Source: Escherichia coli (lineage in GTDB: Bacteria; Pseudomonadota; Gammaproteobacteria; Enterobacterales; Enterobacteriaceae). From it: 64,000 bases of DNA. Below the pieces are notes generated by a model that did not search any database, had not been told where the DNA came from, and saw only the letters and a program-made list of their open reading frames with translations. Below are positions 10,638 to 10,653 of this stretch, piece by piece. How positions within the stretch are numbered: the first letter of the stretch is position 1; each line of letters starts with the position of its first letter. The DNA is taken from the NCBI RefSeq assembly GCF_003790525.1, contig NZ_CP033635.1, one strand, 5' to 3'. The position numbers and the translations under genes were made by a program.

Positions 10638-10653
10638 CTGGATAGATATCCAG
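10638..10653. promoter_or_regulatory. LexA (SOS) box of the ruvAB operon
   Basis: CTGGATAGATATCCAG palindrome about 50 bp upstream of ruvA start. Confidence 0.7.

What the first reader, a model, noticed from the sequence alone, without database searches (positions are those of the whole stretch)
10638..10653. LexA box upstream of ruvAB
CTGGATAGATATCCAG matches the known SOS box of the ruvAB operon. It is a useful comparison with the prophage dinI-like LexA boxes in the same window.
Basis: established knowledge. Interest (0 to 1): 0.15.

Follow-up and report, generated by a model that had tools for sequence, protein, structure and literature searches.

The report
Known LexA operator of ruvAB
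The 16-base palindrome is the well-known binding site for the DNA-damage repressor LexA on the promoter of the E. coli recombination genes ruvA and ruvB, so the finding is correct but ordinary.

Summary
CTGGATAGATATCCAG sits at 10638-10653, 51 nt upstream of the GTG start of ruvA on the minus strand. Its reverse complement with flanks is identical to the published E. coli K-12 ruvA LexA site (PMC3009722, Table 4).

- **PWM score:** A LexA PWM built from 17 other published sites, with ruvA left out, gives 18.4 bits. That ranks third in the window, with 0.017 hits expected per 64 kb, and 0 of 200 shuffles reach it.
- **Promoter overlap:** The box contains the -35 hexamer of the ruvAB promoter TGGATA-17-TATCAT. 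Genomic SELEX work (PMC3946193) assigned the same promoter.
- **Conservation:** All 78 Enterobacteriaceae species loci with upstream DNA carry CTGGAT-N4-ATCCAG. The arms are invariant and the centre varies. In 76 of the 78 the box lies 49-54 nt upstream of ruvA.
- **Strength:** It is a mid-strength operator. The tandem boxes of the prophage dinI-like gene at 16177-16224 score 23-25 bits.

One small addition is inferred, not shown. The palindrome plus the conserved T7 run also looks like an intrinsic terminator. It lies about 15 nt after the ruvC stop in 50 of 79 loci, and 72 nt after the yobI stop here. It may insulate ruvAB from upstream transcription.

The parts
10638..10653 (-). LexA (SOS) box core 16-mer; reads CTGGATATCTATCCAG on the ruvAB strand
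   Evidence: sequence. (identical to the published K-12 ruvA site). (PWM 18.4 bits for the 20-mer 10636-10655). (arms invariant in 78/78 species loci).
10647..10652 (-). -35 hexamer TGGATA of the ruvAB sigma-70 promoter, lying inside the LexA box
   Evidence: Consensus scan. The same promoter TGGATA-17-TATCAT is assigned to ruvAB from RpoD holoenzyme genomic SELEX in PMC3946193. The same hexamers are found in Salmonella locus L046.
10624..10629 (-). -10 hexamer TATCAT (TATGAT in most other genera)
   Evidence: Nearly invariant in the alignment of 76 distinct upstream regions.
10629..10635 (-). Run of 7 T on the ruvAB strand. It is the promoter spacer and also the U-tract following the hairpin.
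   Evidence: Conserved in nearly all loci. Called as a terminator tail by the scan.
10637..10654 (-). RNA hairpin GCUGGAU-AUCU-AUCCAGC that a transcript coming from yobI could form (terminator-like; function inferred only)
   Evidence: 7-pair stem, 4 G-C pairs. (dG -10.6 kcal/mol, z = -4.3, 0 of 200 shuffles as stable).
10593..10597 (-). Shine-Dalgarno AGGAG of ruvA
   Evidence: Sequence. Invariant block in the cross-species alignment.
9975..10586 (-). ruvA (203 aa, GTG start), first gene of the regulated operon
   Evidence: ORF. (RefSeq annotation of the identical sequence).
8956..9966 (-). ruvB (336 aa), second gene of the operon, starting 8 nt after the ruvA stop
10725..10790 (-). yobI (21-aa small stress protein gene), co-oriented with ruvA; its stop lies 72 nt upstream of the box
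   Evidence: Annotation transferred from NZ_CP033850.1 (offset +7399). The yobI promoter is listed separately in PMC3946193.

Best explanation
The palindrome is the LexA operator of the ruvAB operon. On the ruvAB (minus) strand it reads CTGGATATCTATCCAG and contains the -35 hexamer TGGATA of the sigma-70 promoter TGGATA-17-TATCAT. That promoter lies about 30 nt upstream of the ruvA Shine-Dalgarno sequence. A LexA dimer bound here covers roughly -35 to -20 and competes with RNA polymerase, keeping ruvAB at a basal level. After DNA damage, RecA-stimulated LexA self-cleavage frees the promoter, and ruvA and ruvB rise about 2-3 fold. It is a mid-affinity site, so repression is partial and induction modest. 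Shown here: the sequence, its identity to the published site, its PWM strength, its overlap with the promoter hexamers, and its conservation. Taken from the literature: ruvAB belongs to the SOS regulon and is induced by UV and ciprofloxacin. Inferred: the exact transcription start and the occlusion mechanism.
For: The sequence is at the stated place and identical to the published K-12 ruvA LexA motif. The leave-one-out PWM gives 18.4 bits, rank 3 in the window, 0.017 expected per 64 kb, 0 of 200 shuffles. An HI-like index of 8.5 lies within the range of the accepted sites. The -35 hexamer lies inside the box with a 17-nt spacer to TATCAT, and the same promoter was assigned from RpoD SELEX (PMC3946193). 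ruvAB is listed with a known SOS box (PMC6590174). ruvA and ruvB show log2 fold changes of about 1.0-1.6 after ciprofloxacin (PMC11002266), and ruvA is among the UV-induced genes used for motif discovery (PMC3009722). All 78 Enterobacteriaceae species loci with upstream DNA have CTGGAT-N4-ATCCAG with invariant arms and a variable 4-nt centre, 76 of them 49-54 nt before the GTG. Box, T-run and -10 form the only conserved non-coding block apart from the SD. Six E. coli strains spanning 90-100% spacer identity are invariant from the box to ruvA.
Against: No binding or expression experiment can be run here. The promoter hexamers are only 9 of 12 to consensus, and the start site is inferred. In Salmonella, ruvA was not among the nalidixic-acid-induced loci and showed LexA-independent basal expression (PMC8072944), so control by this box can be weak. 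The invariant arms are also the -35 element and a hairpin stem, so conservation alone cannot be credited to LexA.
Confidence: 0.95

Rival explanations
1. Additional rather than exclusive: the same palindrome, transcribed from upstream, folds into a hairpin followed by U7 and acts as an intrinsic terminator. It would terminate ruvC in most Enterobacteriaceae and yobI in E. coli. Transcription that is not under SOS control would then not read into ruvAB and bypass LexA.
For: The scan calls a terminator-like site on the minus strand at 10654..10637 plus a T-run. The hairpin has dG -10.6 kcal/mol, z -4.3. In 50 of 79 loci the ruvC stop lies 9-17 nt upstream on the same strand. In 49 of those 50 the palindrome is extended to 9-10 pairs (GAGGCTGGAT..ATCCAGCCTT, dG -14.6 to -15.3) followed by T7. 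Where other DNA separates ruvC from ruvA, the flanks vary and the hairpin is weaker (-6.2 to -13.8). The Salmonella locus L046 gives a 10-pair terminator call beginning 8 nt after the ruvC stop codon. The T-run is conserved although promoter spacers usually are not. Both arms carry the G/C deviation from the LexA consensus (CTGG..CCAG), which raises stem stability.
Against: No 3' end near yobI or ruvA is listed in the E. coli K-12 Term-seq tables searched. The ruvC 3' end there maps inside yebB antisense (PMC7815308 supplement). The stem has no compensatory changes, so covariation cannot support it. The T-run could be conserved for promoter reasons. The G at box position 4 also improves the -35 match. 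The association with ruvC adjacency is not corrected for phylogeny, and some left-flank changes are simply insertion breakpoints.
Confidence: 0.4
2. A chance palindrome that merely fits CTG-N10-CAG, with no regulatory role.
For: CTG-N10-CAG occurs 30 times in the window, most of them inside genes.
Against: PWM 18.4 bits against a shuffle maximum of 17.9 and 0.017 expected per window. Exact identity to the published site. Arms invariant in 78 of 78 species while the neighbouring DNA diverges.
Confidence: 0.01
3. The box controls the neighbouring genes yobI or yebB rather than ruvAB.
For: It lies in the ruvA-yobI-yebB intergenic cluster.
Against: It is downstream of yobI and 207 nt from the yebB start. 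The yobI and yebB promoters assigned in PMC3946193 lie in the yobI-yebB spacer (CTGAAA-17-TATTAC read at about 10802-10830). The box keeps its distance to ruvA in species that lack yobI and yebB at this position.
Confidence: 0.02
4. There is a second, adjacent LexA box (10618-10637, TGCTGTATGATAAAAAAATG) overlapping the -10, giving a tandem operator.
For: The left half CTGTAT is a perfect LexA half-site next to the main box and overlaps TATCAT.
Against: It scores only 8.3 bits, below every accepted site (minimum 13.2), with an HI-like index of about 15. There is no CAG half. The ACAG after the -10 is not conserved in other genera (TATGATACCGC, TATGATAGCGC and others).
Confidence: 0.05

Closest known systems
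E. coli K-12 ruvAB SOS box (LexA operator), listed as TTCGCTGGATATCTATCCAGCATTT in PMC3009722 Table 4. From my own recollection it was first described with the ruv operon sequence in 1988 (Shinagawa et al.; Benson et al.) and is in the Fernandez de Henestrosa 2000 list with a heterology index near 9. Those papers could not be opened here.
   Same: Identical 25-nt sequence, same gene order, same distance to ruvA, same promoter hexamers.
   Different: Nothing in the element itself. This strain differs from many E. coli only in the polymorphic DNA further upstream towards yobI.
Consensus gammaproteobacterial LexA box TACTG(TA)5CAGTA, e.g. sulA, umuDC, recN and the tandem boxes of the prophage dinI-like gene at 16177-16224
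   Same: CTG-N10-CAG frame, AT-rich centre, position on a promoter.
   Different: It has G/C at core positions 4 and 13 (CTGG..CCAG) and GC rather than TA flanks. It scores 18.4 bits against 23-29 for the strong sites. This predicts weaker repression and smaller induction, as reported.
cho (ydjQ) LexA box CACTGGATAGATAACCAGCA
   Same: The same unusual CTGGATAGAT..CCAG type of half-site and a similar score (19.7 bits).
   Different: The cho box is not a perfect 6+6 palindrome. No T-run or terminator-like context was examined for it.
Intrinsic (Rho-independent) terminators that overlap the next promoter
   Same: G+C-rich stem of 7-10 pairs, 4-nt loop and a U7 tract directly after a co-oriented gene.
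   Different: Termination is not demonstrated. No mapped 3' end was found in the E. coli data searched.

Membership tests
E. coli-type LexA (SOS) box | 16-bp CTG-N10-CAG dyad with an AT-rich centre | tested here: met
   CTGGATAGATATCCAG at 10638-10653; perfect 6+6 inverted repeat.
E. coli-type LexA (SOS) box | Score within the range of experimentally accepted sites (PWM or heterology index) | tested here: met
   18.4 bits with ruvA left out; the accepted sites score 13.2-29.3. The HI-like index is 8.5 (leave-one-out), computed from the 18 sites of PMC3009722, not from the original Lewis 1994 matrix.
E. coli-type LexA (SOS) box | Overlaps or abuts the promoter of the regulated gene | tested here: met
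   The -35 TGGATA lies inside the box, with 17 nt to TATCAT. The same promoter is assigned in PMC3946193. The transcription start itself was not mapped here.
E. coli-type LexA (SOS) box | Conserved at the orthologous position in related species | tested here: met
   78 of 78 Enterobacteriaceae species loci have the box. It lies 49-54 nt from the GTG in 76 of them; two have an insertion downstream of the promoter.
E. coli-type LexA (SOS) box | Bound by LexA protein | not testable with these tools
   Literature only: ruvAB is under 'Known SOS box' in PMC6590174 Table 1.
E. coli-type LexA (SOS) box | Downstream genes induced by DNA damage in a LexA-dependent way | not testable with these tools
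   Literature only: ruvA/ruvB log2 fold change 1.0-1.6 after ciprofloxacin (PMC11002266); UV-induced set (PMC3009722). In Salmonella ruvA was not detected as nalidixic-acid-induced (PMC8072944).
Intrinsic terminator | Stable G+C-rich hairpin immediately followed by a U-tract on the transcribed strand | tested here: met
   7-pair stem, dG -10.6 kcal/mol, then A plus U7. Other genera have 9-10 pairs and -14.6 to -15.3 kcal/mol.
Intrinsic terminator | Lies downstream of a co-oriented transcription unit | tested here: met
   The yobI stop lies 72 nt upstream here. The ruvC stop lies 9-17 nt upstream in 50 of 79 loci.
Intrinsic terminator | RNA 3' ends map to the U-tract | tested here: inconclusive
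   No 3' end at yobI or ruvA was found in the held supplementary tables of PMC7815308. yobI may be too weakly expressed, and no data set was available for a ruvC-adjacent species.

The most novel reading that the evidence does not exclude
One roughly 35-bp module serves three purposes. As DNA it is the LexA operator and the -35 and spacer of the ruvAB promoter. As RNA it is the intrinsic terminator of the upstream, non-SOS transcription unit (yebC-ruvC in most Enterobacteriaceae, yobI in E. coli). Damage-inducible ruvAB would thereby be insulated from constitutive read-through. The unusual G/C-rich, perfectly symmetric form of this LexA box would then be a compromise between three constraints.
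Probability: 0.4. Interest if true: 0.3.

Novelty: already known. Interest (0 to 1): 0.08.

Why it matters
On its own it matters little, because it re-finds a textbook SOS operator. Its use is as an internal positive control and calibration point for LexA scans of this window. A genuine, conserved, mid-strength chromosomal operator scores 18.4 bits, the prophage dinI-like boxes score 23-25 bits, and chance tops out near 13 bits here. The possible second role as a terminator separating ruvC (or yobI) transcription from LexA-controlled ruvAB is a modest, testable point about how compact intergenic regions combine signals.

Tried and rejected
- **1988 ruv operon papers:** I tried to open them by PubMed id, but they are not held. 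The claims about the first description and the published heterology index therefore rest on my own recollection.
- **45-nt megablast:** A megablast of the 45-nt module against E. coli genomes found nothing, probably because the low-complexity filter masks the A-run. A 138-nt query worked.
- **Second adjacent LexA box (10618-10637):** Rejected. It scores 8.3 bits, has no CAG half and is not conserved.
- **CTGAAAAATGACGCAG at 10691-10706:** It fits CTG-N10-CAG but is not among the top PWM hits (below 3.8 bits), so it is a chance match.
- **Rfam:** An E-value search of 10300-11000 gave no RNA family.
- **Term-seq supplement:** The held supplementary tables show no 3' end at the box in E. coli K-12.
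- **Literature on other regulators:** Searches for a further regulator or ChIP evidence at ruvA added nothing specific.
- **First Pfam call:** It failed on a frame error and was repeated with correct coordinates.

Full report
**What is in the sequence.** The window is E. coli chromosome. A 501-nt piece around the site matches 5,425 of 5,426 complete E. coli genomes and is 100% identical to strain FDAARGOS_497. That strain's annotation gives the order znuC, znuB, ruvB(-), ruvA(-), yobI(-), yebB(+), ruvC(-), yebC(-), nudB(-), aspS(-), which agrees with the ORFs. ruvA is at 9975-10586 on the minus strand with a GTG start, and ruvB follows 8 nt after the ruvA stop. The box lies 51 nt upstream of the GTG on the ruvAB strand, where it reads CTGGATATCTATCCAG.

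**Is it more than chance?** The bare frame CTG-N10-CAG is not informative, with 30 matches against 14.3 expected, mostly inside genes.
- I took the 18 LexA motifs listed in Table 4 of PMC3009722 and removed ruvA to avoid circularity.
- I symmetrised the remaining 17 sites and scanned every position in the window.
- The 20-mer 10636-10655 scores 18.4 bits, third best of 63,981 positions.
- The per-position probability is 2.7e-7, which gives 0.017 expected hits per window.
- None of 200 dinucleotide-preserving shuffles of the whole window reaches that score; the largest is 17.9 and the mean maximum is 11.8.
- The 17 accepted sites score 13.2-29.3 on the same matrix.
- An index computed with the heterology-index formula from these sites is 8.5, inside the range of accepted boxes. 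It does not use the original Lewis 1994 matrix, so it is not the published value.

**Identity with the known site.** With flanks, the minus-strand sequence TTCGCTGGATATCTATCCAGCATTT is identical to the ruvA entry of that table, which was derived from UV-induced genes of K-12. ruvAB is listed among E. coli genes with a 'known SOS box' in the review PMC6590174. A time-course after ciprofloxacin reports log2 fold changes of about 1.0-1.6 for ruvA and 0.65-1.5 for ruvB, far below recN, sulA or umuDC (PMC11002266). The original 1988 descriptions could not be opened.

**Anatomy and mechanism.** A consensus scan finds one sigma-70-like promoter on the minus strand. Its -35 is TGGATA at 10652..10647, followed by a 17-nt spacer and the -10 TATCAT at 10629..10624.
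- The same pair, 'TGGATA-17-TATCAT ruvAB', is the promoter assigned to the yobI-ruvA spacer from genomic SELEX with RpoD holoenzyme (PMC3946193).
- The -35 hexamer is therefore bases 2-7 of the LexA box, and the box spans roughly -35 to -20.
- Bound LexA would exclude RNA polymerase. This occlusion step is inferred from the geometry and from the established behaviour of LexA operators, not shown here.
- AGGAG at 10597..10593 is the ruvA ribosome-binding site.
- The G at box position 4 departs from the LexA consensus T but improves the -35 match (TGGATA is 4 of 6 to TTGACA; TGTATA would be 3 of 6). This is one plausible reason for the mid-level score.

**Conservation across species.** One scan of species-representative genomes with RuvA returned 80 Enterobacteriaceae loci, including Escherichia, Citrobacter, Salmonella, Klebsiella, Enterobacter, Kluyvera, Kosakonia, Raoultella and Leclercia.
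- Of the 78 loci with upstream DNA, all carry CTGGAT-N4-ATCCAG.
- In 76 of them the box lies 49-54 nt before the GTG.
- The arms never vary. The four central bases do vary: ATCT 42, GTTT 13, ATTT 8, AAAT 5, AAAC 4, ATGT 3, ATTC 3.
- In the alignment of 76 distinct upstream regions, the block box + T6-7 + TAT(G/C)AT and the SD are the only conserved non-coding sequences. DNA 5' of the box and the 5' UTR diverge.

**Conservation within E. coli.** The 138-nt yobI-ruvA spacer is polymorphic, and 2,359 of 5,413 genomes are only 90-95% identical to the window. In six strains sampled across that range, every difference lies upstream of the box. One strain (N96) has unrelated DNA in place of yobI/yebB, with the breakpoint about 12 nt from the box.

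**A second reading of the same bases (inferred).** The scan also calls the palindrome plus the following T-run a terminator-like site on the minus strand. As RNA it folds at -10.6 kcal/mol with z = -4.3.
- In E. coli the co-oriented gene upstream is yobI, whose stop is 72 nt away.
- In 50 of 79 loci no yebB or yobI intervenes, and the ruvC stop codon lies 9-17 nt upstream of the box.
- In 49 of those 50 the palindrome is extended to GAGGCTGGAT....ATCCAGCCTT or similar. That gives 9-10 pairs at -14.6 to -15.3 kcal/mol, followed by T7, which is the look of a canonical intrinsic terminator.
- Where other DNA separates ruvC from ruvA, the flanks vary (GG..CC 13, CG..CA 8, AT..CC 5 and others) and the hairpin is weaker, from -6.2 to -13.8 kcal/mol.
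- This fits a module that terminates non-SOS transcription coming from ruvC (or yobI) and immediately starts LexA-controlled ruvAB.

Several cautions apply to this reading.
- There are no compensatory changes in the stem.
- The comparison is not corrected for phylogeny.
- Some flank changes are simply insertion breakpoints.
- The T-run may be kept for promoter reasons.
- The E. coli K-12 3'-end tables I could search list a ruvC 3' end inside yebB antisense and none at yobI or ruvA (PMC7815308).
- Rfam has nothing here.

I rate this dual role at about 0.4.

**Comparison with the prophage boxes.** The two best PWM hits in the window are CACTGTTTATCTATACAGTT (16177-16196, 23.2 bits) and CACTGTATATAAACACAGTA (16205-16224, 24.6 bits). 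The second ends 13 nt before an 82-aa ORF (16238-16486) that matches the Pfam DinI family at E = 2.3e-19. The chromosomal ruvAB operator is a single, weaker, G/C-rich box on a -35. The phage-borne dinI-like gene has two near-consensus boxes in tandem. This predicts tighter repression and larger induction for the latter, but that prediction is an inference.

**Rejected alternatives.**
- A chance palindrome is excluded.
- Control of yebB or yobI is unlikely. Their promoters lie in the yobI-yebB spacer, and the box keeps its place next to ruvA in genomes without those genes.
- An adjacent second box at 10618-10637 scores 8.3 bits and is not conserved.

**Verdict.** The feature is already known, so interest is low. 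In Salmonella the box appears to exert little control under nalidixic acid (PMC8072944). This is a reminder that a good, conserved box need not give strong regulation.

Noticed in passing
window 16177-16486: Two near-consensus LexA boxes in tandem (16177-16196 at 23.2 bits; 16205-16224 at 24.6 bits), the second ending 13 nt upstream of an 82-aa DinI-family ORF (16238-16486, PF06183, E 2.3e-19). A TTGACA hexamer abuts the first box.
   Followed up: partly
window ~15010 onwards: Right after aspS the window departs from strain FDAARGOS_497, which has yecD-yecE next. The window instead carries phage-like DNA: 93.7% to phage P-EibC over 15010-16486, and matches to the phi80/mEp237 region that holds a yecE fragment. 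This suggests a lambdoid prophage at the yecD/yecE site. Its extent was not mapped.
   Followed up: partly
window 10655-10724 and E. coli loci L083-L087: The yobI-ruvA spacer is unusually polymorphic within E. coli (43% of genomes are only 90-95% identical over 138 nt). Yet every difference in six sampled strains lies upstream of the box. Strain N96 has unrelated DNA instead of yobI/yebB, with the breakpoint about 12 nt from the box.
   Followed up: partly
loci L002-L081, upstream of ruvA: The ruvC-ruvA junction has been invaded repeatedly. In 29 of 79 loci other DNA separates ruvC from ruvA (yebB/yobI in Escherichia; different ORFs in Klebsiella oxytoca and others). The right-hand boundary always lies within a few bases of the LexA box.
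   Followed up: partly
L040 1335-1460 (also L077): In Pseudenterobacter timonensis and Enterobacter sp. RIT418 about 125 nt are inserted between the ruvAB promoter and the SD. From my own recollection of its consensus, the insert resembles an ERIC (enterobacterial repetitive intergenic consensus) element (…CTCACCCCAGTCACTTACTAATGTAAGCTCCTGGGGATTCAC…).
   Followed up: no
window 59973-59992 and 20462-20481: Borderline LexA PWM hits TACTGTAAATTATTACATGA (13.3 bits) and TACCGGTAAAATTACCAGTA (12.6 bits). About 0.35 hits of at least 13 bits are expected by chance per window. Their context was not examined.
   Followed up: no
window 16538-16557: CTGTATACATACTCAG fits CTG-N10-CAG just downstream of the dinI-like gene but scores only 5.2 bits (TCAG rather than A/CCAG). 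It is probably not a LexA site.
   Followed up: no
window 10861-11463: yebB (200 aa) is a permuted papain-like amidase (Pfam Peptidase_C92, E 4.7e-45). It is wedged, in the opposite orientation, between ruvC and ruvA in E. coli but is absent from that position in most other genera.
   Followed up: partly
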